Source: Nemertoderma westbladi (Eukaryota > Animalia > Xenacoelomorpha). Taken from it: a DNA stretch of 64,000 nucleotides. Positions 3,116-62,704 of the stretch are shown here, piece after piece. The translations under genes and the position numbers were made by a program. Position 1 is the first letter of the stretch. Each line of letters opens with the position of its first letter. The stretch lies in assembly GCA_032718475.1 (NCBI GenBank), contig JAUCBJ010008014.1, forward strand, positions 14,318 to 78,317. Reading direction: 5' to 3'. Under the pieces are notes generated by a model, which had not been told where the DNA came from, did no database searches, and saw nothing but the letters and a program-made list of their open reading frames with translations.

Positions 3116-3135
3116 TACTCGTCTCTATATCTAAT

Positions 3136-10175: not shown

Positions 10176-10556
10176 TATGTCTGTATGTAGGTCTACATAC
10201 ATATTTATCTTGGGTGGAATAAATGGAATGCCTTCGGCGGGGGAAACTAATTTGTTTGGAAAAAGTAACTTCTATATTATTATTATTATTAATGAATAAT
10301 TTGATGAACTCTGTAGTTTTAACAATGTAACTTGGCAGAGGATACGGATGTCAGAGAGGAGTTGAGACGCAGAGAGGTTACAGCAGTAAATTTTGCAAAC
10401 AGTCAAACAGAATCTTGAATGGCACCAATCATACTTACAGTAGAACGCAATTATCAGGTTTTGGTAAAACTTTAACAGCAAAAGTTAATTGTAAGTGTAG
10501 TTAGAACTTCAGTGGCTCTACAAACACATTGATTCTACATTAAATAACAAACTTAC

Positions 10557-10661
10557 ATTGTCTCTTTCAACCAATTCGGTTGAGTTCCCAGGGCTCTCTC
10601 CCAAACACTCCACAGCAGCAAGAGCTGCAAGAGTTAAAAGTAGAAGAGTTTCCTTGAACAT
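10557..10661 (-). CDS. Candidate signal-peptide first exon of an antisense nested gene
   Basis: Reads MFKETLLLLTLAALAAVECLGESPGNSTELVERDN, followed by a gtaagt donor; downstream exons not convincingly found. Confidence 0.3.
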
Positions 10662-12856: not shown

Positions 12857-13041
12857 GTTATTATAGTTTACAAACTGCGACCACAGGATGTTACCGAGCC
12901 CGTTGTAATTCCTCCTAAAGGCCTAGTTACCGAGAGAGACGGAGTCAACATTCCCGCTTCTGTTATATCAACTATTTCCGCTCAGTATGTCACTGTCGTT
13001 GGTTCGTTCTTCCCGACATTGGAAGCGGCGGATCACAAAAG
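12857..13041 (+). CDS. aGPCR exon, GAIN domain
   Basis: tatag|VIIVYKLRPQDVTEPVVIPPKGLVTERDGVNIPASVISTISAQYVTVVGSFFPTLEAADHK|gttata; phase 2 joins 13608. Confidence 0.75.
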
Positions 13042-23902: not shown

Positions 23903-23933
<31 letters not shown>

Positions 23934-26900
23934 GTGCTATTTGCTTATAATTTTGAATAATTTAGAAATATATTGTAAAACTTAAATCTTAAGTAACCAT
24001 ATATTTTTCACCTCGGGTAATAAAGAGCAAGAGACAATATTAAAGAAAGAAAATAAAAATTGTTGAAACAAACAGAGAATAACCATTACAAGAGAAGAAA
24101 GTGGTGGAAGATCGAAATATAAGAACGAACAGTTAGTAGGTATAAAAAATGTGACTAAGAGGATATTCAAATGTTTATTAGGAAAATATTTTAGACCGAG
24201 CTGTTATCATTGTAATAAATTGGAAAAAATTGACCTTTTTAGAGCAGATGAAAATTTGTTTTTTGATTTTTTTGAACGAATGTCGAGTGGCACCGAGTTC
24301 CAAATGACAGGACCTCGAAAACTCAGGGATCGTTGGGAAGAGCTAAGATTAAAAAGAGGAGTTGTGAAGTCGCCACGAACAGAAGATGTGGTCCATAAAC
24401 GCCACACGTCATCCATAAACGCCACACGTGGTCCATAAACGCCACACGTGGTCCATATACGCCACACGTGGTCCATAAACTCCAGAAAGACCAAAATGTT
24501 GACAGTTAACTTTGAAAGTCCTCAGCAAGTCTCTGATCGGATGAGCATAAGCTCAAAGGATGGTATGCTTGAGCATGTGGATGACTTCTGTTACCTGGGA
24601 TCATGGATCCGGAAGTCAGGTGAGGACCTCCGAATACGTAAGGGAAAGGCATGGGCAGCCTTGAATAGGCTTTCCAGGATTTGGAAGTCACCGAGAATTA
24701 ATCGGAAACTTAAGGTCCGATTATTTAGAGCAGCAGTAGTTCCAGTACTCCTCTATGGGAGTCCATGCTGGGCTCTAACTGCTGAGGACACCAAATCTCT
24801 GGCCGGCACATTCACAAGAAAGCTAGGCCGGGTTCATTGTGTCAAGTACAATGCACACATCTCCAACCAGACACTATATAACAATGGAGGTGTCTCATTG
24901 GTTCCCCCAAGCTTGACACTAGAACAAAATCGCCTCCGCTTTGCAGGACATTGCTTTCGCCGTGAGGACCCGCCAGTGCATAATCTTGTACTTTGGCAGC
25001 CTCATGGAGTGAATAAGCATGGTGGACAGCCCATGACTTTCTTGAGACGCATCTTAAAGGACACTGGCCTTGAAGATGCGGATGATGTAGCAAATGTCAT
25101 GGGTGATAGGGAGTTGTGGCGGCGCAATTTTGTCGACAAGCCGGCACAGCATTCTTAAAAATGCAGCTGCAATGCAGCATGCCGATACTAGTAGTAGTGG
25201 TCCATAAACGCCACCTCTGGTCCATAAATTTTCAATTTAGGGAAAGGAGCAGGTTACAGTGGCATGTTAATTTAACCAAAACAATAAACTAAACACAATA
25301 GAACAGGTTACAGTTTTATATTTGAGTATAATCAGCTGTTATTTGCGTCTAATTTCCCTGGAGAGGATGAATTATTCTTATAATTAATTATTTATTGCGT
25401 CCAGTCAGTCCCCCCCCCCCCCCCCCCCTCCTATCTGGGTAAATAACAACAACAACATGAACTAAAAAAAGTAAAAGTAAATCCTATGAAAGTAGATCCG
25501 GAAAAGTAAATCCTATGAAAGTAGATCCGGAAAAGTAAATCCTATGAAAGTAGATCCGGAAAAGTAAATCCTATGAATTTCTATGGGAGTATTTTTCTTC
25601 CGCCAGGAAAAAAGTGTTGTCTTACAATACACCTAAAGACTTTGTTTGATAGAAGGCAATTCTCAGAATAAATGCTTTCATTCATTAAACTTCGATCAGC
25701 CAGCCCCATTAGCTTACAGTTCCTTATGAACTACTGCATTATTATATAATCTATTTTTTATACTTTTACAGCTGTCTAACCCGCACGAATTTATCCTTCG
25801 AGTCCTTGGTTTAATTGGAGGAAGTCTGTCGCTGATTGGGCTGGTGCTCACAATTATTACGTATTTACTAGTATGGAGGTTTGTTACCAATACAACTACT
25901 ACTAAGGAACTAGTGGTGCAGCATACGTTGAGGTGTGTCTGATACCTTCTGATACTAACTACTCTACTGTTGTCGTTGGTATTGCGATTACGTTTAAAAA
26001 TTGCGAATCTATACAATTTTCCCTATCTGTATTTCCTTTATATTGTGTGTGTGGCGGAAGGTGGAAGGTGGAAGGTGGAAGGTTTCCATTGCCTAAAGAT
26101 ATTTCTACAGTAGTATTTCTTACAGCACAATATTCCGTATATATAATAACTTATAACTCTTAGGAGGAATTCTTACATTGGGATCCGAGAACCTCTTTCT
26201 ATTGTTCTCCTACATCTTGTAGACTCCAACTTCACTAGCATCGCTTGTTACATCTGACTCCCTCACCTCACTCATCATGTTGTTCTACTATTGTCTGTTT
26301 ATTTTAGATTACTATCGTTTGAACGTAGCTTTGTTCTACTATTGTCTGTTTATTTTAGATTACTATCGTTTGAACGTAGCTTTGTTCTACTATTGTCTGT
26401 TTATTTTAGATTACTATCGTTTGAACGTAGCTTTGTTCTACTATTGTCTGTTTATTTTAGATTACTATCGTTTGAACGTAGCTTTGTTCTACTATTGTCT
26501 GTTTATTTTAGATTACTATCGTTTGAACGTAGCTTTGTTCTACTATTGTCTGTTTATTTTAGATTACTATCGTTTGAACGTAGCTTTGTTCTACTATTGT
26601 CTGTTTATTTTAGATTACTATCGTTTGAACGTAGCTTTGTTCTACTATTGTCTGTTTATTTTAGATTACTATCGTTTGAACGTAGCTTTGTTCTAATATT
26701 GTCTGTTTATTTTAGATTACTATCGTTTGAACGTAGCTTTGTTCTACTATTGTCTGTTTATTTTAGATTACTATCGTTTGAACGTAGCTTTGTTCTAATA
26801 TTGTCTGTTATTTTAGATTACTATTGTTTGAACGTAGCTTTGTTCTACTATTGTCTGTTTATTTTAGATTACTATCGTTTGAACGTAGCTTTGTTCTACT

Positions 26901-29900
26901 ATTGTCTGTTTATTTTAGATTACTATCGTTTGAACGTAGCTTTGTTCTAATATTGTCTGTTATTTTAGATTACTATTGTTTGAACGTAGCTTTGTTCTAC
27001 TATTGTCTGTTTATTTTAGATTACTATCGTTTGAACGTAGCTTTGTTCTACTATTGTCTGTTTATTTTAGATTACTATCGTTTGAACGTAGCTTTGTTCT
27101 ACTATTGTCTGTTTATTTTAGATTACTATCGTTTGAACGTAGCTTTGTTCTACTATTGTCTGTTTATTTTAGATTACTATCGTTTGAACGTAGCTTTGTT
27201 CTACTATTGTCTGTTTATTTTAGATTACTATCGTTTGAACGTAGCTTTGTTCTACTATTGTCTGTTTATTTTATATTACTATCGTTTGAACGTAGCTTTG
27301 TTCTACTATTGTCTGTTTATTTTAGATTACTATCGTTTGAACGTAGCTTTGTTCTACTATTGTCTGTTTATTTTAGATTACTATCGTTTGAACGTAGCTT
27401 TGGTCTACTATTGTCTGTTTATTTTAGATTACTATCGTTTGAACGTAGCTTTGTTCTACTATTGTCTGTTTATTTTAGATTACTATCGTTTGAACGTAGC
27501 TTTGTTCTACTATTGTCTGTTTATTTTAGATTACTATCGTTTGAACGTAGCTTTGTTCTACTATTGTCTGTTTATTTTAGATTACTATCGTTTGAACGTA
27601 GCTTTGTTCTACTATTGTCTGTTTATTTTAGATTACTATCGTTTGAACGTAGCTTTGTTCTAATATTGTCTGTTTATTTTAGATTACTATCGTTTGAACG
27701 TAGCTTTGTTCTACTATTGTCTATTTATTTTAGATTACTATCGTTTGAACGTAGCTTTGTTCTACTATTGTCTGTTTATTTTAGATTACTATCGTTTGAA
27801 CGTAGCTTTGTTCTACTATTGTCTGTTTATTTTAGATTACTATCGTTTGAACGTAGCTTTGTTCTACTATTGTCTGTTTATTTTAGATTACTATCGTTTG
27901 AACGTAGCTTTGTTCTACTATTGTCTGTTTATTTTAGATTACTATCGTTTGAACGTAGCTTTGTTCTACTATTTTCTGTTTATTTTAGATTACTATCGTT
28001 TGAACGCAGCTTTGTTCTAATATTGTCTATTTATTTTAGATTACTATCGTTTGAACGTAGCTTTGTTCTAATATTGTCTGTTTATTTTAGATTACTATTG
28101 TTTGAACGTAGCTTTGTTCTACTATTGTCTGTTATTTTAGATTACTATCGTTTGAACGTAGCTTTGTTCTACTATTGTCTGTTTATTTTAGATTACTATC
28201 GTTTGAACGTAGCTTTGTTCTACTATTGTCTGTTATTTTAGATTACTATTGTTTGAACGTAGCTTTGTTCTACTATTGTCTGTTTATTTTAGATTACTAT
28301 CGTTTGAACGTAGCTTTGTTCTACTATTGTCTATTTATTTTAGATTACTATCGTTTGAACGTAGCTTTGTTCTACTATTGTCTGTTTATTTTAGATTACT
28401 ATCGTTTGAACGTAGCTTTGTTCTACTCTTGTCTATTTATTTTAGATTACTATCGTTTGAACGTAGCTTTGTTCTACTATTGTCTATTTATTTTAGATTA
28501 CTATCGTTTGAACGTAGCTTTGTTCTACTATTGTCTGTTTATTTTAGATTACTATCGTTTGAACGTAGCTTTGTTCTACTATTGTCTATTTATTTTAGAT
28601 TACTATCGTTTGAACGTAGCTTTGTTCTACTATTGTCTATTTATTTTAGATTACTCCGTTTGAACGTAGCTTTGTTCTACTATTGTCTGTTTATTTTAGA
28701 TTACTATCGTTTGAACGTAGCTTTGTTCTACTATTGTCTGTTTATTTTAGATTACTATCGTTTGAACGTAGCTTTGTTCTAATATTGTCTGTTTATTTTA
28801 GATTACTATCGTTTGAACGTAGCTTTGTTCTACTATTGTCTATTTATTTTAGATTACTATCGTTTGAACGTAGCTTTGTTCTACTATTGTCTGTTTATTT
28901 TAGATTACTATCGTTTGAACGTAGCTTTGTTCTACTATTGTCTGTTTATTTTAGATTACTATCGTTTGAACGTAGCTTTGTTCTACTATTGTCTGTTTAT
29001 TTTAGATTACTATCGTTTGAACGTAGCTTTGTTCTACTATTGTCTGTTTATTTTAGATTACTATTGTTTGAACGTAGCTTTGTTCTACTATTGTCTGTTT
29101 ATTTTAGATTACTATCGTTTGAACGTAGCTTTGTTCTACTATTGTCTGTTTATTTTAGATTACTATCGTTTGAACGTAGCTTTGTTCTACTATTGTCTGT
29201 TTATTTTAGATTACTATCGTTTGAACGCAGCTTTGTTCTAATATTGTCTATTTATTTTAGATTACTATCGTTTGAACGTAGCTTTGTTCTACTATTGTCT
29301 GTTTATTTTAGATTACTATCGTTTGAACGTAGCTTTGTTCTACTATTGTCTGTTTATTTTAGATTACTATCGTTTGAACGTAGCTTTGTTCTAATATTGT
29401 CTGTTTATTTTAGATTACTATCGTTTGAACGTAGCTTTGTTCTACTATTGTCTATTTATTTTAGATTACTATCGTTTGAACGTAGCTTTGTTCTACTATT
29501 GTCTGTTTATTTTAGATTACTATCGTTTGAACGTAGCTTTGTTCTAATATTGTCTATTTATTTTAGATTACTATCGTTTGAACGTAGCTTTGTTCTACTA
29601 TTGTCTATTTATTTTAGATTACTCCGTTTGAACGTAGCTTTGTTCTACTATTGTCTGTTTATTTTAGATTACTATCGTTTGAACGTAGCTTTGTTCTACT
29701 ATTGTCTATTTATTTTAGATTACTATCGTTTGAACGTAGCTTTGTTCTACTATTGTCTATTTATTTTAGATTACTATCGTTTGAACGTAGCTTTGTTCTA
29801 CTATTGTCTATTTATTTTAGATTACTATCGTTTGAACGTAGCTTTGTTCTACTATTGTCTGTTTATTTTAGATTACTATCGTTTGAACGTAGCTTTGTTC

Positions 29901-32900
29901 TACTATTGTCTATTTATTTTAGATTACTATCGTTCGAACGTAGCTTTGTTCTACTATTGTCTGTTTATTTTAGATTACTATCGTTTGAACGTAGCTTTGT
30001 TCTACTATTGTCTGTTTATTTTAGATTACTATCGTTTGAACGTAGCTTTGTTCTACTATTGTCTGTTTATTTTAGATTACTATCGTTTGAACGTAGCTTT
30101 GTTCTACTATTGTCTGTTTATTTTAGATTACTATCGTTTGAACGTAGCTTTGTTCTACTATTGTCTGTTTATTTTAGATTACTATCGTTTGAACGTAGCT
30201 TTGTTCTACTATTGTCTGTTTATTTTAGATTACTATCGTTTGAACGTAGCTTTGTTCTACTATTGTCTGTTTATTTTAGATTACTATCGTATGAACGTAG
30301 CTTTGTTCTACTATTGTCTATTTATTTTAGATTACTATCGTTTGAACGTAGCTTTGTTCTACTATTGTCTGTTTATTTTAGATTACTATCGTTTGAACGT
30401 AGCTTTGTTCTACTATTGTCTATTTATTTTAGATTACTATCGTTTGAACGTAGCTTTGTTCTACTATTGTCTATTTATTTTAGATTACTATCGTTTGAAC
30501 GTAGCTTTGTTCTACTATTGTCTGTTTATTTTAGATTACTATCGTTTGAACGTAGCTTTGTTCTACTATTGTCTGTTTATTTTAGAATACTATCGTTTGA
30601 ACGTAGCTTTGTTCTACTATTGTCTGTTTATTTTAGATTACTATCGTTTGAACGTAGCTTTGTTCTACTATTGTCTATTTATTTTAGATTACTATCGTTT
30701 GAACGTAGCTTTGTTCTACTATTGTCTGTTTATTTTAGATTACTATCGTTTGAACGTAGCTTTGTTCTACTATTGTCTGTTTATTTTAGATTACTATCGT
30801 TTGAACGTAGCTTTGTTCTACTATTGTCTGTTTATTTTAGATTACTATCGTTTGAACGTAGCTTTGTTCTCATCAATCTTTGCTTTGCGTTGTTTGTTGC
30901 GATTCTGCTGTTCCTAATTGGAGTGGAAGGTCACGGGTTTCTAAATGTTAGTAGACATGTCTCTATATAACATTCTGGTTGTACTTCTGTAACAGTTCTA
31001 CTTTATTCCTTACAGGATTCTGGTTGTACTTCTTTAACAGTTCTACTTTATTCCTTACAGGATTCTGGTTGTACTTCTTTAACAGTTCTACTTTATTCCT
31101 TACAGGATTCTGGTTGTACTTCTTTAACAGTTCTACTTTATTCCTTACAGGATTCTGGTTGCCCTTCTGTAACAGTTCTACTTTATTCCTTACACAGGAT
31201 TCTGGTTGTACTGCTGTAACAGTTCTACTTTATTCCTTACAGGATTCTGGTTGTACTGCTGTAGCAGTTCTACTTTATTCCTTACAGGATTCTGGTTGCC
31301 CTTATGTAACAGTTCTACTTTATTCCTTACACAGGATTCTGGTTGTACTGCTGTAACAGTTCTACTTTATTCCTTACAGGATTCTGGTTGTACTTCTGTA
31401 ACAGTTCTACTTTATTCCTTACAGGATTCTGGTTGTACTTCTTTAACAGTTCTACTTTATTCCTTACAGGATTCTGGTTGCCCTTCTGTAACAGTTCTAC
31501 TTTATTCCTTACACAGGATTCTGGTTGTACTGCTGTAACAGTTCTACTTTATTCCTTACAGGATTCTGGTTGTACTGCTGTAGCAGTTCTACTTTATTCC
31601 TTACAGGATTCTGGTTGCCCTTATGTAACAGTTCTACTTTATTCCTTACACAGGATTCTGGTTGTACTGCTGTAACAGTCCTACTTTATTCCTTACAGGA
31701 TTCTGGTTGCCCTTCTGTAACAATTCTACTCTATTCCTTACAGGATTCTGGTTGCCCTTCTGTAACAGTTCTACTTTATTCCTTACACAGGATTCTGGTT
31801 GCACTGCTGTAACAGTTCTACTTTATTCCTTACAGGATTCTGGTTGCCCTTCTGTAACAGTTCTACTTTATTCCTTACAGGATTCTGGTTGTACTTCTGT
31901 AACAGTTCTACTTTATTCCTTACACAGGATTCTGGTTGCACTGCTGTAACAGTTCTACTTTATTCCTTACAGGATTCTTGTTGTACTGCTGTAACAGTTC
32001 TACTTTATTCCTTACAGGATTCTGGTTGTACTGCTGTAACAGTTCTACTTTATTCCTTACAGGATTCTGGTTGTACTTCTGTAACAGTTCTACTTTATTC
32101 CTTACAGGATTCTGGTTGCCCTTCTGTAATAGTTCTACTTTATTCCTTACAGGATTCTGGTTGCCCTTCTGTAACAGTTCTACTTTATTCCTTACAGGAT
32201 TCTGGTTGTACTTCTGTAACAGTTCTACTTTATTCCTTACAGGATTCTGGTTGCCCTTCTGTAACAGTTCTACTTTATTCCTTACACAGGATTCTGGTTG
32301 CACTGCTGTAACAGTTCTACTTTATTCCTTACAGGATTCTGGTTGCACTGCTGTAACAGTTCTACTTTATTCCTTACAGGATTCTGGTTGTACTGCTGTA
32401 ACAGTTCTACTTTATTCCTTACAGGATTCTGGTTGTACTTCTGTAACAGTTCTACTTTATTCCTTACAGGATTCTGGTTGCCCTTATGTAACAGTTCTAC
32501 TTTATTCCTTACACAGGATTCTGGTTGTACTGCTGTAACAGTCCTACTTTATTCCTTACAGGATTCTGGTTGCCCTTCTGTAACAATTCTACTCTATTCC
32601 TTACAGGATTCTGGTTGCCCTTCTGTAACAGTTCTACTTTATTCCTTACAGGATTCTGGTTGCCCTTCTGTAACAGTTCTACTTTATTCCTTACACAGGA
32701 TTCTGGTTGTACTGCTGTAACAGTTCTACTTTAATCCTTACAGGATTCTGGTTGTACTTCTGTTGCAGTTCTACTTTATTCCTTACAGGATTCTTGTTGT
32801 ACTTCTGTAACAGTTCTACTTTATTCCTTACAGGATTCTGGTTGCCCTTCTGTAACAGTTCTACTTTATTCCTTACAGGATTCTGGTTGCCCTTCTGTAA

Positions 32901-35900
32901 CAATTCTACTCTATTCCTTACAGGATTCTGGTTGCCCTTCTGTAACAGTTCTACTTTATTCCTTACACAGGATTCTGGTTGTACTGCTGTAACAGTTCTA
33001 CTTTAATCCTTACAGGATTCTGGTTGTACTTCTGTAACAGTTCTACTTTATTCCTTACAGGATTCTGGTTGCCCTTCTGTAACAGTTCTACTTTATTCCT
33101 TACACAGGATTCTGGTTGTACTGCTGTAACAGTTCTACTTTAATCCTTACAGGATTCTGGTTGTACTTCTGTTGCAGTTCTACTTTATTCCTTACAGGAT
33201 TCTGGTTGTACTGCTGTAACAGTCCTACTTTATTCCTTACAGGATTCTGGTTGCCCTTCTGTAACAATTATACTCTATTCCTTACAGGATTCTGGTTGCC
33301 CTTCTGTAACAGTTCTACTTTATTCCTTACAGGATTCTGGTTGCCCTTCTGTAACAGTTCTACTTTATTCCTTACAGGATTCTGGTTGCCCTTCTGTAAC
33401 AGTTCTACTCTATTCCTTACAGGATTCTGGTTGCCCTTCTGTAACAGTTCTACTTTATTCCTTACAGGATTCTGGTTGCCCTTCTGTAACAGTTCTACTT
33501 TATTCCTTACAGGATTCTGGTTGCCCTTCTGTAACAGTTCTACTCTATTCCTTACAGGATTCTGGTTGCCCTTCTGTAACAGTTCTACTTTATTCCTTAC
33601 ACAGGATTCTGGTTGCCCTTCTGTAACAGTTCTACTTTATTCCTTACAGGATTCTGGTTGCCCTTCTCTAACAGTTCTACTTTATTCCTTACAGGATTCT
33701 GGTTGCCCTTCTGTAACAGTTCTACTTTATTCCTTACAGGATTCTGGTTGCCCTTCTGTAACAGTTCTACTTTATTCCTTACAGGATTCTGGTTGCCCTT
33801 CTGTAACAGTTCTACTCTATTCCTTACAGGATTCTGGTTGCCCTTCTGTAACAGTTCTACTCTATTCCTTACAGGATTCTGGTTGCCCTTCTGTAACAGT
33901 TCTACTTTATTCCTTACACAGGATTCTGGTTGCCCTTCTGTAACAGTTCTACTTTATTCCTTACAGGATTCTGGTTGCCCTTCTCTAACAGTTCTACTTT
34001 ATTCCTTACAGGATTCTGGTTGCCCTTCTGTAACAGTTCTACTTTATTCCTTACAGGATTCTGGTTGCCCTTCTGTAACAGTTCTACTTTATTCCTTACA
34101 GGATTCTGGTTGCCCTTCTGTAACAGTTCTACTCTATTCCTTACAGGATTCTGGTTGCCCTTCTGTAACAGTTCTACTTTATTCCTTACAGGATTCTGGT
34201 TGCCCTTCTGTAACAGTTATACTTTATTCCTTACAGGATTCTGGTTGCCCTTCTGTAACAGTTCTACTTTATTCCTTACAGGATTCTGGTTGCCCTTCTG
34301 TAACAGTTCTACTTTATTCCTTGCAGGATTCTGGTTGCCCTTCTCTAACAGTTCTACTTTATTCCTTACAGGATTCTGGTTGCACTGCTGTAGCAGTTCT
34401 ACTTTATTCCTTACAGGATTCTGGTTGCCCTTCTGTAACAGTTCTACTTTATTCCTTACAGGATTCTGGTTGCCCTTCTGTAACAATTCTACTCTATTCC
34501 TTACAGGATTCTGGTTGCCCTTCTGTAACAGTTCTACTTTATTCCTTATAGGATTCTGGTTGCCCTTCTGTAACAGTTCTACTTTATTCCTTACAGGATT
34601 CTGGTTGCCCTTCTGTAACAGTTCTACTTTATTCCTTACAGGATTCTGGTTGCCCTTCTGTAACAGTTCTACTGTATTCCTTACAGGATTCTAGTTGCCC
34701 TTCTGTAACAGTTATACTTTATTCCTTACAGGATTCTGGTTGCCCTTCTGTGACAGTTCTACTTTATTCCTTACAGGATTCTGGTTGTACTGCTGTTACA
34801 GTTCTACTTTATTCCTTACAGGATTCTGGTTGCACTGCTGTAACAGTTCTACTTTATTCCTTACAGTATTCTGGTTGTACTGCTGTAACAGTTCTACTTT
34901 ATTCCTTACAGGATTCTGGTTGCCCTTCTGTAACAGTTATACTTTATTCCTTACAGGATTCTGGTTGCCCTTCTGTAACAGTTCTACTTTATTCCTTACA
35001 GGATTCTGGTTGCCCTTCTGTAACAGTTCTACTTTATTCCTTACAGGATTCTGGTTGCCCTTCTGTAACAGTTATACTTTATTCCTTACAGGATTCTGGT
35101 TGCCCTTCTGTAACAGTTCTACTTTATTCCTTACAGGATTCTGGTTGCCCTTCTGTAACAGTTCTACTTTATTCCTTGCAGGATTCTGGTTGCCCTTCTC
35201 TAACAGTTCTACTTTATTCCTTACAGGATTCTGGTTGCACTGCTGTAGCAGTTCTACTTTATTCCTTACAGGATTCTGGTTGCCCTTCTGTAACAGTTCT
35301 ACTTTATTCCTTACAGGATTCTGGTTGCCCTTCTGTAACAGTTCTACTTTATTCCTTACAGGATTCTGGTTGCACTTCTGTAGCAGTTCTACTTTATTCC
35401 TTACAGGATTCTGGTTGCCCTTCTGTAACAATTCTATTTTATTCCTTACAGGATTCTGGTTGCCCTTCTGTAACAGTTCTACTTTATTCCTTACAGGATT
35501 CTGGTTGCCCTTCTGTAACAGTTCTACTTTATTCCTTACAGGATTCTGGTTGTACTGCTGTAACAGTTCTACTTTATTCCTTACAGTATTCTGGTTGCAC
35601 TGCTGTAACAGTTCTAATTTATTCCTTACATGATTCTGGTTGTACTGCTGTAGCAGTTCTACTTTATTCCTTACGGGATTCTGGTTGTACTGCTGTAACA
35701 GTTCTAATTTATTCCTTACAGGATTCTGGTTGCCCTTCTGTAACAGTTCTACTGTATTCCTTACAGGATTCTGGTTGCCCTTCTCTAACAGTTCTACTTT
35801 ATTCCTTACAGGATTCTGGTTGTACTGCTGTAGCAGTTCTACTTTATTCCTTACGGGATTCTGGTTGTACTGCTGTAACAGTTCTACTTTATTCCTTGCA

Positions 35901-38900
35901 GGATTCTGGTTGCCCTTCTCTAACAGTTCTACTTTATTCCTTACAGGATTCTGGTTGCACTGCTGTAGCAGTTCTACTTTATTCCTTACAGGATTCTGGT
36001 TGCCCTTCTGTAACAGTTCTACTTTATTCCTTACATGATTCTGGTTGCCCTGCTGTAACAGTTCTACTTTATTCCTCACAGGATTCTGGTTGCCCTTCTG
36101 TAACAGTTCTACTTTATTCCTTACAGGATTCTGGTTGCCCTTCTGTAACAGTTCTACTTTATTCCTTACAGGATTCTGGTTGCACTTCTGTAGCAGTTCT
36201 ACTTTATTCCTTACAGGATTCTGGTTGCCCTTCTGTAACAATTCTATTTTATTCCTTACAGGATTCTGGTTGCCCTTCTGTAACAGTTCTACTTTATTCC
36301 TTACAGGATTCTGGTTGCCCTTCTGTAACAGTTCTACTTTATTCCTTACAGTATTCTGGTTGCACTGCTGTAACAGTTCTAATTTATTCCTTACATGATT
36401 CTGGTTGTACTGCTGTAGCAGTTCTACTTTATTCCTTACAGGATTCTGGTTGCCCTTCTGTAACAGTTATACTTTATTCCTTACAGGATTCTGGTTGCCC
36501 TTCTGTAACAGTTCTACTTTATTCCTCACAGGATTCTGGTTGCCCTTCTGTAACAGTTCTACTTTATTCCTCACAGGATTCTGGTTGCCCTTCTGTAACA
36601 GTTCTACTTTATTCCTTACAGGATTCTGGTTGCACTTCTGTAGCAGTTCTACTTTATTCCTTACAGGATTCTGGTTGTACTTCTACTTTATTCCTTACAG
36701 GATTCTGGTTGCCCTTCTGTAACAGTTCTACTTTATTCCTTACAGGATTCTGGTTGCCCTTCTGTAACAATTCTATTTTATTCCTTACAGGATTCTGGTT
36801 GCCCTTCTGTAACAGTTCTACTTTATTCCTTACAGGATTCTGGTTGCCCTTCTGTAACAGTTCTACTTTATTCCTTACAGTATTCTGGTTGCACTGCTGT
36901 AACAGTTCTAATTTATTCCTTACATGATTCTGGTTGTACTGCTGTAGCAGTTCTACTTTATTCCTTACAGGATTCTGGTTGTACTGCTGTAACAATTCTA
37001 TTTTATTCCTTACAGGATTCTGGTTGCCCTTCTGTAACAGTTCTACTTTATTCCATACAGGTTTCTGGTTGCCCTTCTGTAACAGTTCTACTTTATTCCT
37101 TACAGGATTCTGGTTGCCCTTCTGTAACAGTTCTAATTTATTCCTTACAGGATTCTGGTTGTACTTCTGTAGCAGTTCTACTTTATTCCTTACAGGATTC
37201 TGGTTGTACTGCTGTAGCAGTTATACTTTATTCCTTACAGGATTCTGGTTGCCCTTCTGTAACAGTTCTACTTTATTCCTTACAGGATTCTGGTTGCCCT
37301 TCTGTAACAGTTCTACTTTATTCCTTACAGGATTCTGGTTGTACTGCTGTAACAGTTCTACTTTATTCCTTACAGGATTCTGGTTGCCCTTCTGTAGCAG
37401 TTCTACTTTATTCCTTACAGGATTCTGGTTGCCCTTCTGTAACAGTTCTACTTTATTCCTTACAGGATTCTGGTTGCACTGCTGTAACGGTTCTACTTTA
37501 TTCCTTACAGGATTCTGGGTGCCCTTCTGTAACAGTTCTACTTTATTCCTTACAGGATTCTGGTTGCACTGCTGTAGCAGTTCTACTTTATTCCTTACAG
37601 GATTCTGGTTGTACTGCTGTAACAGTTCTACTTTATTCCTCACAGGATTCTGGTTGCCCTTCTGTAACAGTTCTACTTTATTCCTCACAGGATTCTGGTT
37701 GCCCTTCTGTAACAGTTCTACTTTATTCCTTACAGGATTCTGGTTGTACTGCTGTAGCAGTTATACTTTATTCCTTACAGGATTCTGGTTGCCCTTCTGT
37801 AACAGTTCTACTTTATTCCTTACAGGATTCTGGTTGTACTGCTGTAGCAGTTATACTTTATTCCTTACAGGATTCTGGTTGCCCTTCTGTAACAGTTCTA
37901 CTTTATTCCTTACAGGATTCTGGTTGCCCTTCTGTAACAGTTCTACTTTATTCCTTACAGGATTCTGGTTGTACTGCTGTAACAGTTCTACTTTATTCCT
38001 TACAGGATTCTGGTTGCCCTTCTGTAGCAGTTCTACTTTATTCCTTACAGGATTCTGGTTGCCCTTCTGTAACAGTTCTACTTTATTCCTTACAGGATTC
38101 TGGTTGCACTGCTGTAACGGTTCTACTTTATTCCTTACAGGATTCTGGGTGCCCTTCTGTAACAGTTCTACTTTATTCCTTACAGGATTCTGGTTGCACT
38201 GCTGTAGCAGTTCTACTTTATTCCTTACAGGATTCTGGTTGTACTGCTGTAACAGTTCTACTTTATTCCTCACAGGATTCTGGTTGCCCTTCTGTAACAG
38301 TTCTACTTTATTCCTCACAGGATTCTGGTTGCCCTTCTGTAACAGTTCTACTTTATTCCTTACAGGATTCTGGTTGCCCTTCTGTAACAGTTCTAGTTTA
38401 TTCCTTACAGGATTCTGGTTGCCCTTCTGTAACAGTTCTACTTTATTCCTTACAGGATTCTGGTTGTACTGCTGTAACAGTTCTACTTTATTCCTTACAG
38501 GATTCTGGTTGCCCTTCTGTAACAGTTCTACTTTATTCCTTACAGGATTCTGGTTGCCCTTCTGTAACAGTTCTACTGTATTCCTTACAGGATTCTGGTT
38601 GCCCTTCTGTGACAGTTCTACTTTATTCCTTACAGGATTCTGGTTGTACTTCTGTAACAGTTATATTTTATTCCTTACAGGATTCTGGTTGTACTGCTGT
38701 AACAGTTCTACTTTATTCCTTACATGATTCTGGTTGTACTGCTGTAACAGTTCTACTTTATTCCTTACAGGATTCTGGTTGCCCTTCTGTAACAGTTCTA
38801 CTTTATTCCTTACAGGATTCTGGTTGTACTGCTGTAACAGTTCTACTTTATTCCTCACAGGATTCTGGTTGCCCTTCTGTAACAGTTCTAGTTTATTCCT

Positions 38901-41900
38901 TACAGGATTCTGGTTGCCCTTCTGTAACAATTATATTTTATTCCTTACAGGATTCTTGTTGTACTTCTGTAGCAGTTCTACTTTATTCCTTACAGGATTC
39001 TGGTTGCCCTTCTGTAACAGTTCTACTTTATTCCTTACAGGATTCTGGTTGCACTTCTGTAGCAGTTCTACTTTATTCCTTACAGGATTCTGGTTGCCCT
39101 TCTGTAACAATTCTATTTTATTCCTTACAGGATTCTGGTTGCCCTTCTGTAACAGTTCTACTTTATTCCTTACAGGATTCTGGTTGCCCTTCTGTAACAG
39201 TTCTACTTTATTCCTTACAGGATTCTGGTTGTACTGCTGTAACAGTTCTACTTTATTCCTTACAGGATTCTGGTTGCCCTTCTGTAACAGTTCTACTTTA
39301 TTCCTTACAGGATTCTGGTTGCCCTTCTGTAACAGTTCTACTTTATTCTTTACAGGATTCTGGTTGCACTGCTGTAGCAGTCCTTCTACATTATTTCTTC
39401 CTCTCCGTGTTCACTTGGATGTTGAACGAAGGAATTCTCTATTATCTCAACGTAGTCGTTATATTTGAACGGGAGGTTTCCTGGAAATGGATTTATTTAG
39501 GTATCGGTTGGGGTGCGCCGTTATTGGTAGTTGGTATTTCGGCTGGTGCCAGCCAACTCAATGGATACTCGTACGAACGGCCAGGGGGAGATGTTATGTA
39601 AGTATTTATCTTTGGGATATAATAAAGTATTATTTTAATATTTGTTTAACTAAAATAGATATGCCGACTATGTTTATTTTAGTTTATTTTCTACTTTATA
39701 TACCTCAACAGTAGGTTCAGTTTAGTTTATTTTCTACTTTATATACCTCAACATTAGGTTTAGTTTATTTTATACTTTATATACCTCAACATTAGGTTTA
39801 GTTTAGTTTATTTTATACTTTATATACCTCATCAGTAGGTTTAGTTTAGTTTATTTTCTACTTTATATACCTCAACAGTAGGTTTAGTTTAGTTTATTTT
39901 CTACTTTATATACCTCAACATTAGGTTTAGTTTAGTTTATTTTCTACTTTATATACCGCAACATTAGGTTTAGTTTAGTTAATTTTTACTTTATATACCT
40001 CAACAGTAGGTTTAGTTTAGTTTATGTTCTACTTTATATAGCTCAACATTAGGTTTAGTTTATTTTCTACTTTATATACCTCAACATTAGGTTTAGTTTA
40101 GTTTATTTTCTACTTTATATACCGCAACATTAGGTTTAGTTTAGTTAATTTTTACTTTATATACCTCAACAGTAGGTTTAGTTTAGTTTATGTTCTACTT
40201 TATATAGCTCAACATTAGGTTTAGTTTAGTTTATTTTCTACTTTATATACATCAACAGTAGGTTTAGTTTAGTTTATTTTCTACTTTATATACCTCAACA
40301 TTAGGTTTAGTTTAGTTTATTTTCTACTTTATATACCTCAACATTAGGTTTAGTTTAGTTTATTTTCTACTTTATATACCTCAACATTAGGTTTAGTTTA
40401 GTTTATTTTCTACTTTATATACCTCAACAGTAGGTTCAGTTTAGTTTATTTTCTACTTTATATACCTCAACATTAGGTTTAGTTTATTTTATACTTTATA
40501 TACCTCAACATTAGGTTTAGTTTAGTTTATTTTCTACTTTATATACCTCAACAGTAGGTTTAGTTTAGTTTATTTTCTACTTTATATACCTCAACATTAG
40601 GTTTAGTTTAGTTTATTTTCTACTTTATATACCTCAACATTAGGTTTAGTTTAGTTTATTTTCTACTTTATATACCTCAACAGTAGGTTCAGTTTAGTTT
40701 ATTTTCTACTTTATATACCTCAACATTAGGTTTAGTTTAGTTTATTTTCTACTTTATATACCTCAACATTAGGTTTAGTTTAGTTTATTTTCTACTTTAT
40801 ATACCTCAACAGTAGGTTCAGTTTAGTTTATTTTCTACTTTATATACCTCAACATTAGGTTTAGTTTAGTTTATTTTCTACTTTATATACCTCAACAGTA
40901 GGTTCAGTTTAGTTTATTTTCTACTTTATATACCTCAACATTAGGTTTAGTTTATTTTATACTTTATATACCTCAACATTAGGTTTAGTTTAGTTTATTT
41001 TCTACTTTATATACCTCAACAGTAGGTTTAGTTTAGTTTATTTTCTACTTTATATACCTCAACATTAGGTTTAGTTTAGTTTATTTTCTATTTTATATAC
41101 CTCAACAGTAGGTTCAGTTTAGTTTATTTTCTACTTTATAACCTCAACATTAGGTTTAGTTTAGTTTATTTTCTACTTTATATACCTCAACATTAGGTTT
41201 AGTTTTGTTTATTTTCTACTTTATATACCTCAACAGTAGGTTTAGTTTAGTTCATTTTCTACTTTATATACCTCAACAGTAGGTTTAGTTTAGTTTATTT
41301 TCTACTTTATATACCTCAACAGTAGGTTTAGTTTATTTTCTACTTTATATACCTCAACATTAGGTTTAGTTTAGTTTATTTTCTACTTTATATACCTCAA
41401 CATTAGGTTTAGTTTAGTTTATTTTCTACTTTATATACCTCAACATTAGGTTTAGTTTAGTTTATTTTCTACTTTATATACCTCAACAGTAGGTTTAGTT
41501 TAGTTTATTTTCTACTTTATATACCTCAACATTAGGTTTAGTTTAGTTTATTTTCTACTTTATATACCTCAACAGTAGGTTTAGTTTAGTTTATTTTCTA
41601 CTTTATATACCTCAACAGTTAAGAAAAAATTTAGTGTATTGTATACTTTATGTAACTCGACAGTTGGTTTTATTTAGTGTTTTGTATACTTTATGATTCC
41701 TTTCCAGATGCTGGTTAGATCCTTCCGTTGGTGTTTTGTATGCCTTCATAGGCCCCGCAGTAGCTATAGCCGTGGCTAACATGGTGGTTATTGTTATTGT
41801 ACTCAGAACGATGTTTAAAAGCTCGGCTTTTAATAAAAAATCGGAGATAGAACAGATCAAGTGAGTTACATTGAACAGATCAAGTGAGTTACATTGAATT

Positions 41901-44900
41901 ATCTCCTGGATAGAACAGATCAAGTGAGTTACATTGAATTATCTCCTGGATAGAACAGATCAAGTGAGTTACATTGAACAGATCAAGTGAGTTACATTGA
42001 ATTATCTCCTGGATAGAACAGATCAAGTGAGTTACATTGAATTATCTCCTGGATAGAACAGATCAAGTGAGTTACATTGAATTATCTCCTGGATAGAACA
42101 GATCAAGTGAGTTACATTGAATTATCTCCTGGATAGAACAGATAAAGTGAGTTACATTGAATTATCTCCTGGATAGAACAGATCAAGTGAGTTACATTGA
42201 ATTATCTCCTGGATAGAACAGATCAAGTGAGTTACATTGAATTATCTCCTGGATAGAACAGATCAAGTGAGTTACATTGAATTATCTCCTGGATAGAACA
42301 GATCAAGTGAGTTACATTGAACAGATCAAGTGAGTTACATTGAATTATCTCCTGGATAGAACAGATCAAGTGAGTTACATTGAACAGATCAAGTGAGTTA
42401 CATTGAATTATCTCCTGGATAGAACAGATCAAGTGAGTTACATTGAATTATCTCCTGGATAGAACAGATCAAGTGAGTTACATTGAATTATCTCCTGGAT
42501 AGAACAGATCAAGTGAGTTACATTGAATTATCTCCTGGATAGAACAGATCAAGTGAGTTACATTGAACAGATCAAGTGAGTTACATTGAATTATCTCCTG
42601 GATAGAACAGATCAAATGAGTTACATTGAATTATCTCCTGGATAGAACAGATCAAGTGAGTTACATTGAATTATCTCCTGGATAGAACAGATCAAGTGAG
42701 TTACATTGAATTATCTCCTGGATAGAACAGATCAAGTGAGTTACATTGAATTATCTCCTGGATAGAACAGATCAAGTGAGTTACATTGAATTATCTCCTG
42801 GATAGAACAGATCAAGTGAGTTACATTGAATTATCTCCTGGAATGTTTTAATTCAGGTACATATCGCCAAATATGTAAAAACAAGACAATATAAACATAA
42901 CAATTTCGTGTAGAAATAGCTGAGATATCGTCGTTGGGAAGCTGCATGATTTAGACTGCGAGGCTATTTAATTGCTAAACCACATCGTAATAAACCCCCG
43001 CAACTCATCATGGGTTGATATTCTGAGGATTTGTAAATATTGTCTCTCACTAGCATCGCGTTGTATTTATTGTCTTGGAAATCATTTTTTCAATATTCAC
43101 CATTTCGTTAGTAATACAGTACAATAAACCCAATAACATTCAACGCTATTGCTGCTGGAAAAATATTCTTTTTGTGATTTCAACCACACCTACAAACACC
43201 TACACAATTTAATTATAAATAGAGATGTTTATGATATTAATATTAATATTATTGCATTTGTGTTTAACATCCATAGATTGTATAAATCATTAAGTAATTA
43301 AACAGGACTAAGGATGAACCAACTCCGTGGTGTAGGTGTTAGCATACCTGAACGTTTATCGGGAGACGCGGGTTCGATCCCCGCTGGTGGCGAATTCATT
43401 TTTTCCGCTCCATTTGCTATAGAGTTGGATCATCCTTAGTCCTGTTTAATTACTTAATAAAATATTAATATTAATATTATATTATAATATTATTTTATGC
43501 ATTTTATTTTATTTATTTTATTTTATTTTTCATATTTTATGTCTGCACTTTTAGCTTTAGGTGCGTTTTTCGATATTAACTTTTCTGTTTTTGTGTTGTA
43601 GGGGAGGCGTTTGGAGTTTATGCGTTATTGTTCCAGTTTTCGGAGTCTCTTGGGTGATCGGTGTTTTTGCTGTAACTGAAGAGGCAGTCGTGTTACAATA
43701 TTTATTCAATATATTAATCTCGACTCAGGTTAGTGAAATTATATATTTGGGTTTCTTATTGCACCATCAGCTCGGGTTAGCCGACCTCTAATCCGAATGT
43801 CTCTAATTATTATCATTTTCGCTCGGTTCAGTTTAGTAAATTAAGCAATGACGTCCAGGTGGGATCGAACTGGTGACCTCCGGGTTGCTCTAACCATTCA
43901 GCTAACGGCTCAGGTAAAAGATAGACCCGGAAATACTATCTGATACCTTGTATGTCCGCAATTGACCTCCTCATTGCCTCCCATCTGCCAATGCCATCAT
44001 ATGCTGCCACTGTGCTCAACCCTACAGTACTTGGCCGTCTTTAACCAACCGTCTACAATGAAAGGATAGTGTGTATATTAACCATGAACCATCTCGGTCA
44101 TTTGATTCATTCTACCCTTTCATTGTAGCGAGTGGTTAAAGGCGGCCAAGTACTGTAGGATTGAGCCCAGTGGCAGCATATGATGGTATTGACAGATAGG
44201 AGGCCATGAGGAGGTAAATTGCGGACATACAAGGTATCAGATAGTATTTCCGGGTCTATCTTTTACCTGAGCCGTTAGCTGAATGGTTATACCAACCCGG
44301 ACCAGTTCGATCCCACCTGGACGTCATTGTCGAATTCGCTAAACTGCGCCCAACGAATATTATAGTAATATCTAATATAAAACCACTAATTTTGCCTTAA
44401 ATACCTCTAATATCCCATTTCCTGTAAACAACATAACAAGAAAATGGTATTTTAAGTTTCGCCATTTTGTTTAACACAATGAAATATTAGAGTAAAATCA
44501 CTAGTAACTACTTATGAAACGCGACCATTTCGTACATGTTCAGTATGTTACGGATTAACGTTAGGTTATTAACTGTTCATTCACTCTGGTTGAATTCAAC
44601 TACTCCAATGATACGATTACAAATTGATTTAAGTCTCAAACATTTTGTTTTATTAAATTGTCTGTCAATAGTATTATTAAATCATGAAAAAAAAACAATA
44701 AATAGTTGCGTTACCTGCAATGATGTTATTATTCTGTGGCGCGGATTACCATAATGCGGCTATTATTATTATGTAACACATATAATGTGGCAACGAATAT
44801 CGCTACATCAACATTTACAATAAATAATATACATAAATACAGAAAACAAATTTTGTAGATCTTTATGGACCAGTTTTCTGGGAATTTATCAGACTCGTAG

Positions 44901-47900
44901 TTATTGTCGGACAGACTAACTCGACTATTCTCGAACTAACACACGTCACCAACTCGACTATTCTCGAACTAACTCACGTCACCAACTCGACTATTCTCGA
45001 ACTAACTCACGTCACTAACTCGACTATTCTCGACCTAACTCACGTCACTAACTCGACTATTCTCGATCTAACTCACGTCACTAACTCGAATATTGTTCAA
45101 TAAACTACAATTAGTTAACTATTTTCTTAAACAATAATTTACTATGTTCTCTTTTTGTATTTCAGGGAGTTTTTATATTTATTTTTCATTGTCTCATGGC
45201 GAAACCTGTGCGAGACGCGTTGCGGAGGAAAGGATACTTAGCGAAAGGGATTAGAGGACCTCGATCTGGTACAAGTAGTGCGGTAAGTAATAGAAAGGAT
45301 TAGAAGCAACAGATCTGGTACAAGCGGTGCGGTAAGTAATAGAAAGGATTAGAGGCAACAGATCTGGTACAAGCAGTGCGGTAAGTAATAGAAAGGATTA
45401 GAGGCAACAGATCTGGTACAAGCAGTGCGGTAAGTAATAGAAAGGATTAGAGGCAACAGATCTGGTACAAGCAGTGCGGTAAGTAATAGAAAGGATTAGA
45501 GGCAACAGATCTGGTACAAGCAGTGCGGTAAGTAATAGAAAGGATTAGAGGCAACAGATCTGGTACAAGTAGTGCGGTAAGTAATAGAAAGGATTAGAAG
45601 CAACAGATCTGGTACAAGCGGTGCGGTAAGTAATAGAAAGGATTAGAGGCAACAGATCTGGTACAAGCAGTGCGGTAAGTAATAGAAAGGATTAGAGGCA
45701 ACAGATCTGGTACAAGCAGTGCGGTGAGTAATAGAGAGGATTAGAGGCAACAGATCTGGTACAAGCAGTGCGGTAAGTAATAGAAAGGATTAGATGCAAC
45801 AGATCTGGTACAAGCAGTGCGGTAAGTAATAGAAAGGATTAGAGGCAACAGATCTGGTACAAGCGGTGCGGTAAGTAATAGAAAGGATTAGAGGCAACAG
45901 ATCAGTGCGGTAAGTAATAGAAAGGATTAGAGGCAACAGATCTGGTACAAGCAGTGCGGTAACTAATAGAAAGGATTAGAGGCAACAGATCTGGTACAAG
46001 CAGTGCGGTAAGTAATAGAAAGGATTAGAGGCAACAGATCTGGTACAAGCAGTGCGGTAAGTAATAGAAAGGATTAGAGGCCCTCGATCTGGTACAAGTA
46101 GTGCGGTAAGTAATAGAAAGGATTAGAGGCAACAGATCTGGTACGAGCAGTGCGGTAAGTAATAGAAAGGATTAGAGGCAACAGATCTGGTACAAGCAGT
46201 GCGGTAAGTAATAGAGAGGATTAGATGCAACAGATCTGGTGCAAGCAGTGTGGTAAGTAATAGAAAGGATTAGAGGCTACAGATCTGGTACAAGCAGTGC
46301 GGTAAGTAATAGAAAGGATTAGAGGCAACAGATCTGGTACAAGCAGTGCGGTAAGTAATAGAAAGGATTAGAGGCAACAGATCTGGTACAAGCAGTGCGG
46401 TAAGTAATAGAAAGGATTAGAGGCAACAGATCTGGTACAAGTAGTGCAGTAAGTAATAGAAAGGATTAGAGGCAACAGATCTGGTACAAGTAGTGCAGTA
46501 AGTAATAGAAAGGATTAGAGGCAACAGATCTGGTACAAGCAGTGCGGTAAGTAATAGAAAGGATTAGAGGCAACAGATCTGGTACAAGCAGTGCGGTAAG
46601 TAATAGAAAGGATTAGAGGCAACAGATCTGGTACAAACAGGGCGGTAAGTAATAGAAAGGATTAGAGGCAACAGATCTGGTACAAGCAGTGCTGTAAGCT
46701 GATTAGAAATATGGAACAAATTATAATTTTGAATGGGAGAGTCTTTAATGCTCATCAATCCAACGAATACCTGTTCGCATCATAAACAGAAAGGAGACAC
46801 AGCAAGACTCGCCTCAGTCTGCTGGAATCAATTACTGGGCTGATTTACATGCTAATAAACTCCTCCCTGCTTACTGTATAGTTGTCACATAGGAGTAGGC
46901 CAGAACCAAAGTTCGGCTAACAGATACACTTTGCTGTGTGACAATACCGCATGGCAGCTTTGTGAGAGCGCAATGGTGACCTATTACATAGGGTTTGGGT
47001 TACAGCGCTCCGAAAACACGGAGGGCGCTGTTAAAGAGAAGTCAAAACGTGACGAAAATCCGCCGTGCTGTCACTGCGAATGTAAATATGTGAACCGGGA
47101 TTAAGATAAAAGTTTATTTCATTAGATTTTTTAAATGTTTTTAATTTAATTAAAGTTTAATTGATTCGAATAGGCCGATCCCCCGACGTTGTCTACCACG
47201 GCTCGGAAGAGTTCGGCATTCCCGTCGTCTTCATCCAATCCCGATTCGATGACGAAGAAATACAGTAAAAGTAATTGGTCCAATCACAAGATCGAGTTGA
47301 ATACGAGATCCCCGACTCCTCCAATGAACGCTGCCGGTGATTCGAACTCAATCAAGCCGTTGATAGAGATCCAACCAGCTGTTATCGCAACCACTGGGGT
47401 CAAACAGCAGTTAGATATTGACGAATTAGCTGATAGTTCAGGTAGAAATAAACATGATCTACTACTGGAAACAACTAATACTTAATTGTTTACTTTTTGT
47501 GTTTTGTTAGTAAATTTGTAGTTGCTTAACATTAATCTTTAAGATTTATTACTAATTGGTTTTGTTGAAAACGGCTTAGCGAAAGTCGCCAGTTTTTATT
47601 TGGAGGTTTTTTTGAGACGTTTTTTCTTCTTTTTTTCAGACGGGTAAACTGACCCAAATAACGTCCCACATATTACCTGAGCCAATTAATACCGATTGAA
47701 TATTAACATTTATCTCTTCAAAATAAAAAGTTTGTGGAACAAAATACAATTTCAAACTGTTAAATATCGAAGTTACGATTTCTTCTGGAATCCATTTTTT
47801 TCATACAGATAACGTTATGTCATTCAATTATTTTTACTCCGTTTTTATTGAACGTTTTTTTGGGACAGTTTCTTGTCTGAAAAAAGTGGAAAATCGATCC

Positions 47901-62599: not shown

Positions 62600-62704
62600 C
62601 TGGAAGATTGAATAAGAAATTTTATATATTTATATCAGACAAACGTCCACAACCGGCAAATTAAAACTGAATTAACAAGCGCAGTATTTCTCAAGTTTCT
62701 CAAG

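What the first reader, a model, noticed from the sequence alone, without database searches (positions are those of the whole stretch)
30947..39381. An 8.4-kb intron that is almost wholly about 185 copies of its own acceptor, the last 59 decoys in frame
Seen: the array starts about 26 nt after the donor at 30947, so the ancestral intron may have been under 100 nt. From 36701 to 39356 the spacing is exactly 59x45 nt, and I saw no stop in the exon frame (DSGC[P/T][S/A]V[T/A]VLLYSLQ). Any of these acceptors would add whole 15-aa Cys-containing units before TM3. Variants are mosaic (CP/CT, S/A, T/A), with higher-order structure: a 630-bp duplication (37221 vs 37851) and periodic 47-bp units at about 31150-33920. 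Inference: this is either a graded isoform ladder or a strong test of acceptor choice.
Basis: partly seen in the sequence, partly recalled or inferred. Interest (0 to 1): 0.8.

Follow-up and report, generated by a model that had tools for sequence, protein, structure and literature searches.

The report
Giant splice-acceptor "mirage" repeat in GPCR
An intron of an animal adhesion-receptor gene is 99.7% filled by 186 tandem copies of a 45-base piece spanning its own end and the start of the next exon; this kind of repeat is known from lancelets, and the spare splice signals are likely mostly ignored rather than used as a ladder of receptor forms.

Summary
Intron 30947-39355 of an adhesion GPCR (GPS + 7tm_2; 11 modelled exons, 752 codons, open) holds 186 units of exon head plus intron end. 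Of 185 decoy positions 178 keep AG; the last 59 units are in frame and stop-free, 57 with AG. The in-frame run shows no sign of coding selection: an out-of-frame run is as long (61 units), two of three frames of the unit are open, and the synonymous share (6 of 20 alleles) equals both the neutral expectation and the out-of-frame control. The same gene has three more junction-spanning arrays (51-bp acceptor, 40- and 49-bp donors), about 16-fold more than random placement predicts. This is the 'mirage' minisatellite class of amphioxus, whose described members do not disturb the mRNA; human donor-side cases use at most the two nearest spare sites. Best reading: a neutral, tolerated expansion in which exon definition favours the last acceptor, with perhaps minor +15/+30-residue leak. 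No RNA, genome or second allele could be examined, so splicing is inferred. Copy number is far above the published cases I read. A clean test substrate, not a new system.

The parts
30947..39355 (+). Phase-0 intron between the TM2 and TM3-4 exons of an adhesion GPCR, 8409 nt
   Evidence: GT..AG ends, open spliced frame; spacing matches relatives
30947..30970 (+). Unique 5' part of the intron with the donor (7 of 11 matches to the recalled U1 consensus)
30971..39381 (+). 45-bp minisatellite, 186 units plus the exon head; unit = exon head + intron end with a branch-point-like GTAAC at -24 (147 of 186 units)
31016..31016 (+). First decoy acceptor; would define a 69-nt intron and hit a stop 67 codons later
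31151..33921 (+). Zone holding the 13 frame-shifting 47-nt units and three TAA-bearing units
33922..36666 (+). 61 consecutive 45-nt units out of frame with the exon (internal control)
36667..36700 (+). Single 34-nt unit that sets the frame boundary
36701..39355 (+). 59 in-frame, stop-free units (57 with AG), including a 574-bp exact duplication 37173/37803
39356..39597 (+). Authentic 242-nt exon, TM3-TM4 of the 7TM domain; its acceptor carries a C-to-T change found in no decoy
   Evidence: PF00002 E 2.3e-19
30841..30946 (+). 106-nt TM2 exon, flanked by the 51-bp and the 45-bp arrays
26280..30870 (+). Second acceptor mirage: 51-bp unit, 90 starts (88 of 89 decoys with AG; last 23 in frame and open); TTGTTCT microhomology at both ends
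41846..42842 (+). Donor mirage: 40-bp unit (five of 23 nt), 27 donor positions counting the authentic one at 41861
45243..46698 (+). Donor mirage: 49-bp unit, 29 donor-like positions counting the authentic one at 45283
21305..21462 (+). GPS exon of the host gene
   Evidence: PF01825 E 5.4e-14
12857..52774 (+). Modelled span of the host adhesion GPCR: 11 exons, 752 codons without an internal stop; 5' part not modelled
   Evidence: BLASTP to ADGRD1- and ADGRL-named proteins, 29-37% identity, E 3e-60 to 2e-49

Best explanation
The intron is filled by a minisatellite whose 45-bp unit is the gene's own intron end plus exon start, and the spliceosome likely uses mainly the last, authentic acceptor, so the array is likely a tolerated, selectively neutral expansion (a 'mirage'). 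Shown: unit anatomy, 186 copies, higher-order duplications, intact host frame, neutral variant spectrum, three sister arrays on other junctions. Inferred: a short duplication across the junction seeded the unit (microhomology is visible at the ends of the 51-bp sister array); slippage or unequal exchange expanded and mixed it; the first acceptor copy was lost from the 5' edge. Inferred: with a multi-kb intron the 242-nt exon is defined across itself, from its strong donor at 39598 to the nearest acceptor; each decoy further upstream adds 45 nt (287, 332, 377 nt ...) and is less competitive. The same rule leaves the first donor as winner in the donor arrays, so the real site is always the exon-side copy. 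Minor use of the nearest one or two decoys (+15, +30 residues in extracellular loop 1) and of the first decoy (premature stop) is expected as leak, not as a programme.
For: Unit anatomy and counts. No coding constraint: 6 synonymous of 20 alleles in the last 59 units, 6 of 20 in the out-of-frame units 66-126, 0.27-0.33 expected. Indel-free run out of frame is 61 units, longer than the in-frame 59. Two of three frames are open in both acceptor units; simulated 3n units from the gene's nine other acceptors are open in 647 of 1323 cases. Zero-decoy splice gives TM2-Asn to TM3-Cys spacing 27; 96 of 102 relatives with both anchors lie at 24-28, 81 at 25. 65% of the first 52.8 kb is minisatellite, including arrays with no splice site. 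Amphioxus mirages do not disturb the mRNA (PMC3087553, PMC3902484). In human genes with long flanking introns the sites closest across the exon are preferred (PMC9225289).
Against: No transcript was seen, so acceptor use is inferred from other species. The first decoy sits 69 nt from the donor, a size at which PMC9225289 reports intron definition and a strong preference for the upstream 3' site. Both acceptor arrays are 3n and open while both donor arrays are not 3n; chance is about 0.16 per array, about 0.03 for both (two cases, post hoc). No stop allele occurs in the last 59 units (chance about 0.22 for four independent frame-breaking events). Human 6-16 and CBS use the two nearest pseudo-donors (PMC1557585 introduction), so some leak has precedent.
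Confidence: 0.72

Rival explanations
1. Dosage drain: the first decoy (31016) is often chosen by intron definition across 69 nt, making an 8.6-kb exon with a stop 67 codons in that would be destroyed by nonsense-mediated decay; the array lowers receptor output.
For: 69-nt GT..AG interval with a decoy nearly identical to the real acceptor; stop position computed; short-intron rule in PMC9225289; AG-to-GA junctions cannot regenerate a donor, so the error could not be repaired by re-splicing.
Against: The donor is modest (7 of 11 U1 matches). The host frame is intact over 752 codons. Only 7 of 185 decoys have lost AG, with no clustering at the 5' end, so nothing suggests selection against proximal decoys.
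Confidence: 0.12
2. Graded isoform ladder: many of the 57 in-frame acceptors are used and give receptors with 15-residue Cys-bearing units in extracellular loop 1.
For: 57 AG decoys are in frame and open; the 51-bp array also ends in 23 open in-frame decoys.
Against: Neutral variant spectrum and a longer out-of-frame run. The unit is hydrophobic (mean hydropathy 0.59) and repeats the Cys that aligns with the conserved TM3 Cys, so long inserts would likely misfold (inference). No repeated insert in the three relatives with the longest spacing. Even where human pseudo-donors are used, only the two nearest are.
Confidence: 0.06
3. This haplotype is an extreme or defective allele, or the copy number is inflated by assembly; typical alleles are much shorter.
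For: Mirages are length-unstable and one was mis-assembled in the amphioxus draft (PMC3087553). The window holds a 62-bp array of 111 identical units.
Against: 55 distinct unit types in nested haplotypes with non-identical higher-order blocks are hard to produce by assembly error; no N in the window; host frame intact.
Confidence: 0.1

Closest known systems
Amphioxus 'mirage' minisatellites (Adh3, globins BflGb6/BflGb9, troponin C, PGBD5). Seen: passages of PMC3087553 and PMC3902484; the original Adh3 paper (Canestro 2002) was not held and is known to me only through those passages
   Same: Tandem unit spanning an intron-exon boundary; BflGb6 is acceptor-type like this one; unit length within the reported 10-160 bp; many but not all units keep AG; homogenised interior with distinct boundary units.
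   Different: 186 units against 3-6 (BflGb6) and 2-7 (PGBD5); Adh3 copy numbers not seen. The array fills 99.7% of the intron; four such arrays lie in one gene; the terminal 59 units are in frame. Host species not identified here.
Human donor-spanning VNTRs: F7 IVS7 (37 bp, 5-9 units), 6-16, CBS IVS13, LAMIN B2, PDGF. Seen: abstract, introduction and discussion of PMC1557585
   Same: Identical spare splice sites in tandem; the exon-side site wins; in F7, in-frame pseudo-sites are not used either. The 40- and 49-bp arrays of this gene are direct parallels.
   Different: Those are donors; the finding is an acceptor array, where the first spare site is the one nearest the donor. At most 25 pseudo-sites. 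6-16 and CBS use two spare sites.
Variable internal tandem repeats at exon-intron boundaries in human segmental duplications (PMC2812944, passages) and spl-TRs (PMC10078293, passages)
   Same: Minisatellites at boundaries can yield alternative transcripts that retain repeats.
   Different: About 4 units on average; spl-TRs act as regulators near splice sites rather than as copies of the site.
Adhesion GPCRs, ADGRD1/latrophilin-like
   Same: GPS motif followed by a secretin-family 7TM; conserved TM3 Cys and LLHYF motif.
   Different: No close relative found (listed identities up to 58% on the exon); subfamily and species not assigned.

Membership tests
Mirage minisatellite (as described in PMC3087553) | Tandem repeat whose unit spans an exon-intron boundary of the host gene | tested here: met
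   Exon head matches the unit at 23 of 26 positions, then diverges (9 of 19); unit ends in the acceptor
Mirage minisatellite (as described in PMC3087553) | Unit length of minisatellite size (10-160 bp reported) | tested here: met
   45 bp
Mirage minisatellite (as described in PMC3087553) | Many but not all units keep the AG/GT signal | tested here: met
   178 of 185
Mirage minisatellite (as described in PMC3087553) | Concerted evolution inside, boundary units excluded | tested here: met
   Mean 1.8 mismatches to consensus; 50 identical units; first and last units each unique; block duplications
Mirage minisatellite (as described in PMC3087553) | Regular splicing of the mRNA is undisturbed | not testable with these tools
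   No reads could be laid on the locus; only indirect support from the intact frame and loop length
Mirage minisatellite (as described in PMC3087553) | Length differs between alleles or somatic cells | not testable with these tools
   One haplotype only; no genome held
Functional alternative-acceptor ladder | Coding constraint on the in-frame units | tested here: not met
   6 of 20 synonymous in frame, 6 of 20 out of frame, 0.27-0.33 expected; small counts, low power
Recursive (ratchet) splicing | AG directly followed by GT so that a donor is regenerated | tested here: not met
   AG is followed by GA or TA; only 1 of 185 positions (37061) has AG-GT
Adhesion GPCR | GPS motif ahead of a secretin-family 7TM domain | tested here: met
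   PF01825 E 5.4e-14; PF00002 E 2.3e-19

The most novel reading that the evidence does not exclude
The array is a splicing dial: the nearest in-frame decoys yield receptors with 15-residue steps added to extracellular loop 1, the first decoy feeds nonsense-mediated decay, and allele length tunes both; acceptor arrays can grow this large only when the unit is 3n and open (true of both here), and splice junctions are preferred seeds of minisatellites in this genome (4 of 7 arrays in the modelled span, 0.25 expected).
Probability: 0.1. Interest if true: 0.65.

Novelty: new member of a known kind. Interest (0 to 1): 0.27.

Why it matters
If the best reading holds, it is an extreme natural demonstration that position, not sequence, picks the acceptor: one real site among 178 near-identical ones, with a rival 69 nt from the donor. 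The 106-nt TM2 exon between two arrays is a ready substrate for testing exon against intron definition in an invertebrate. The excess of arrays on splice junctions in one gene asks why minisatellites are seeded there; PMC3087553 calls the mechanism unclear. Such arrays can also mislead gene prediction: the last 59 units and the exon read as one 965-residue open frame. It would matter much more if RNA showed a ladder.

Tried and rejected
RNA evidence: one search of sequencing runs with 39356-48100 gave 'no RNA holder listed'; this is no evidence either way, and no reads were laid. Whole genome: none held. Exact 38-nt unit pattern in metagenome contigs: 0 matches. Species identification by protein searches failed: hits are mammals, fish, echinoderms, a sponge, a cnidarian, a snail and a nemertean at 58% identity or less. 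Multi-stretch hits (P0005, P0006, P0008, P0009 and others) are several 7TM domains in one model or an unrelated repeat, not mirage inserts. RNA structure as the discriminator: a hairpin can pair the branch-like site with the AG, but it is the same in the true and the last decoy acceptor and no better than shuffles (z -0.02, -0.73, -0.90); rejected. Recursive splicing: rejected. Internal donor in the unit: two GT positions score 5 of 11 against 6-9 for the ten real donors; micro-exon use is unlikely but not excluded. The first open-frame simulation (0.238) used wrong exon phases and was discarded; one search is the corrected one. The weak Pfam hits of the 965-residue read-through (DPPIV_N, FN3_DSCAM, DUF6878) have no stretch passing on its own and are taken as repeat artefacts. 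'Ancestral intron under 100 nt': possible (the next intron has only 87 nt outside its array) but not shown. No structure was predicted, since it would not bear on acceptor use.
Full report
Observation. The interval 30947-39355 begins GTTAGT and ends CAG. Tandem Repeats Finder gives one 45-bp array at 30972-39381, 186.6 copies. Parsing gives 186 units from 30971: 172 of 45 nt, 13 of 47 nt and one of 34 nt, 55 distinct sequences, the commonest 50 times. The array is 99.7% of the intron. Of 185 decoy positions 178 keep AG; 85 are in phase with the exon, and 57 are in phase and open up to it, all within the last 59 units. The lag-630 duplication is 574 bp of exact identity, 12 whole units against a maximum of 7 in 200 shuffles of unit order.

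Host gene. Eleven exons from 12857 to 52774 with GT-AG ends join into 752 codons without an internal stop. Single exons hit GPS (E 5e-14) and 7tm_2; a nine-exon model aligns to four proteins named ADGRD1/GPR133 or ADGRL2-like at 29-37% identity. Splicing to 39356 gives a spacing of 27 residues between the TM2 Asn and the TM3 Cys. Of 154 relatives, 153 aligned and 102 had both anchors; 81 have 25 and 96 lie at 24-28. The three longest (29, 31, 56) show no repeated insert. So the last acceptor is the authentic one. The species was not identified.

Anatomy and origin. The exon head matches the unit consensus at 23 of 26 positions and then diverges. The remaining 20 nt are the intron end; a branch-point-like GTAAC lies at -24 in 147 of 186 units, and 172 of 185 full-length units carry a second, out-of-frame AG 20 nt upstream. 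Three diagnostic sites form nested haplotypes from exon-like to majority type in 174 of 185 units, which fits stepwise change with little back-mixing. The real acceptor has one private change toward T, but the real acceptor of the 51-bp array equals its consensus, so a private change is not required. The array starts with the exon-derived half and no acceptor, unlike the 51-bp array, which starts with its intron half and has a 7-nt microhomology at both ends. I infer that the 5' edge lost its first acceptor copy; the ancestral intron length is therefore unknown.

The preceding intron holds a 51-bp acceptor array (90 starts, 88 of 89 decoys with AG, last 23 open in frame). Two later introns hold donor arrays of 40 and 49 bp (27 and 29 donor positions). 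A 56-bp array at 1-2802 repeats a GTAAGT and is probably a further donor array whose exon lies outside the window. Other arrays (34, 62, 43 bp) overlap no modelled junction. Nine large arrays make up 65% of the first 52.8 kb. Within the modelled span 4 of 7 arrays span a junction against 0.25 expected (P about 5e-5 under uniform placement; one gene, chosen for this feature, so the figure is inflated).

Is the open frame meaningful? Units 66-126 form an indel-free run of 61, out of frame, longer than the in-frame 59. Synonymous alleles are 6 of 20 in both runs, against 0.27-0.33 expected. Two of three frames of the consensus are open. Simulated 3n units cut from the nine other acceptors are open in 647 of 1323 cases, and 3n-and-open in 647 of 3969. 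Against this, both acceptor arrays are 3n and open (about 0.03 jointly, two cases, post hoc) and the four frame-breaking events all lie outside the last 59 units (about 0.22). The evidence does not show selection for a ladder; its power is low.

Mechanism. Under exon definition the 242-nt exon is recognised between its donor (9 of 11 U1 matches) and the nearest acceptor; decoys give 287, 332, 377 nt and so on. PMC9225289 (passages) reports for human genes that sites closest across the exon are preferred when introns are long, and sites closest across the intron when introns are under about 250 nt. The second rule names the real rival: the first decoy, 69 nt from the donor, whose product stops after 67 codons. 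Which rule wins in this animal is untested. Re-splicing cannot rescue a wrong choice, as only 1 of 185 positions has AG-GT. Local RNA structure does not separate true from decoy sites.

Comparison. [quoted passage not shown] PMC1557585 (abstract, introduction, discussion) covers human donor VNTRs: only the authentic site is used in F7, LAMIN B2 and PDGF, two extra sites in 6-16 and CBS. Four sequence features of mirages were met; RNA behaviour and length polymorphism could not be tested. In eight literature searches I saw no published acceptor array of this copy number, but most results were seen as listings only and the Adh3 paper was not available. Earlier notes of this scan list 16 findings with the same words in at least 4 genomes, one with about 105 units, most saying that RNA used only the last copy; these are unchecked AI notes and I use them only as a sign that the class recurs outside amphioxus.

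Verdict. Real, extreme in size, and a member of a described class. Most likely neutral and mostly silent (0.72). Interest 0.27; 0.65 if RNA showed regulated decoy use (probability 0.1).

Noticed in passing
window 26280-30870: 51-bp acceptor array ahead of the TM2 exon, 90 starts, also 3n and open in the exon frame for the last 23 decoys; the two-unit stretch folds better than shuffles (z -3.0).
   Followed up: partly
window 41846-42842 and 45243-46698: Two donor-spanning arrays (40 and 49 bp) behind the TM5 and TM7/tail exons of the same gene.
   Followed up: partly
window 1-2802: 56-bp array repeating GTAAGT; probably a donor array of an exon upstream of the window.
   Followed up: no
window 39672-41694: 43-bp array fills 96% of the next intron; its unit has AG-GT and shares an 11-mer with the 45-bp unit (3 of 1500 shuffles, post hoc).
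   Followed up: partly
window 3128-10177: A 34-bp array runs into a 66-bp array whose unit embeds the 34-bp unit plus a 25-nt piece bounded by AG and GT in 37 of 67 units: possibly a repeated micro-exon.
   Followed up: no
window 14311-21230: 62-bp array of 111 identical units with no variant: very recent expansion or assembly smoothing.
   Followed up: no
window 21986-22771, minus strand: Intronless 261-codon ORF nested in the GPS/TM1 intron; weak, sub-threshold hits to DUF6540 and PPPDE peptidase, hydrophobic C-terminal part.
   Followed up: partly
window 10557-10661, minus strand: ATG-led 35-codon stretch resembling a signal peptide, followed by GTAAGT: possibly the first exon of a nested gene; no Pfam hit.
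   Followed up: partly
window 52253-52550: Exonic 39-bp repeat, 7.6 copies, adding 13-residue units to the receptor's C-terminal tail.
   Followed up: no
window 47640-47652: Possible short alternative last exon (acceptor, then a stop after two codons, AATAAA downstream) competing with the 52086 exon.
   Followed up: no
window 24496-25158 (+) and 62999-63652 (-): Two near-identical ORF fragments resembling the 3' end of a LINE reverse transcriptase (label recalled; DUF6451 below cut-off).
   Followed up: no
window about 60770-62610, minus strand: Exon-like pieces of a second gene with a hydrophobic segment and tyrosine motifs, read by eye.
   Followed up: no
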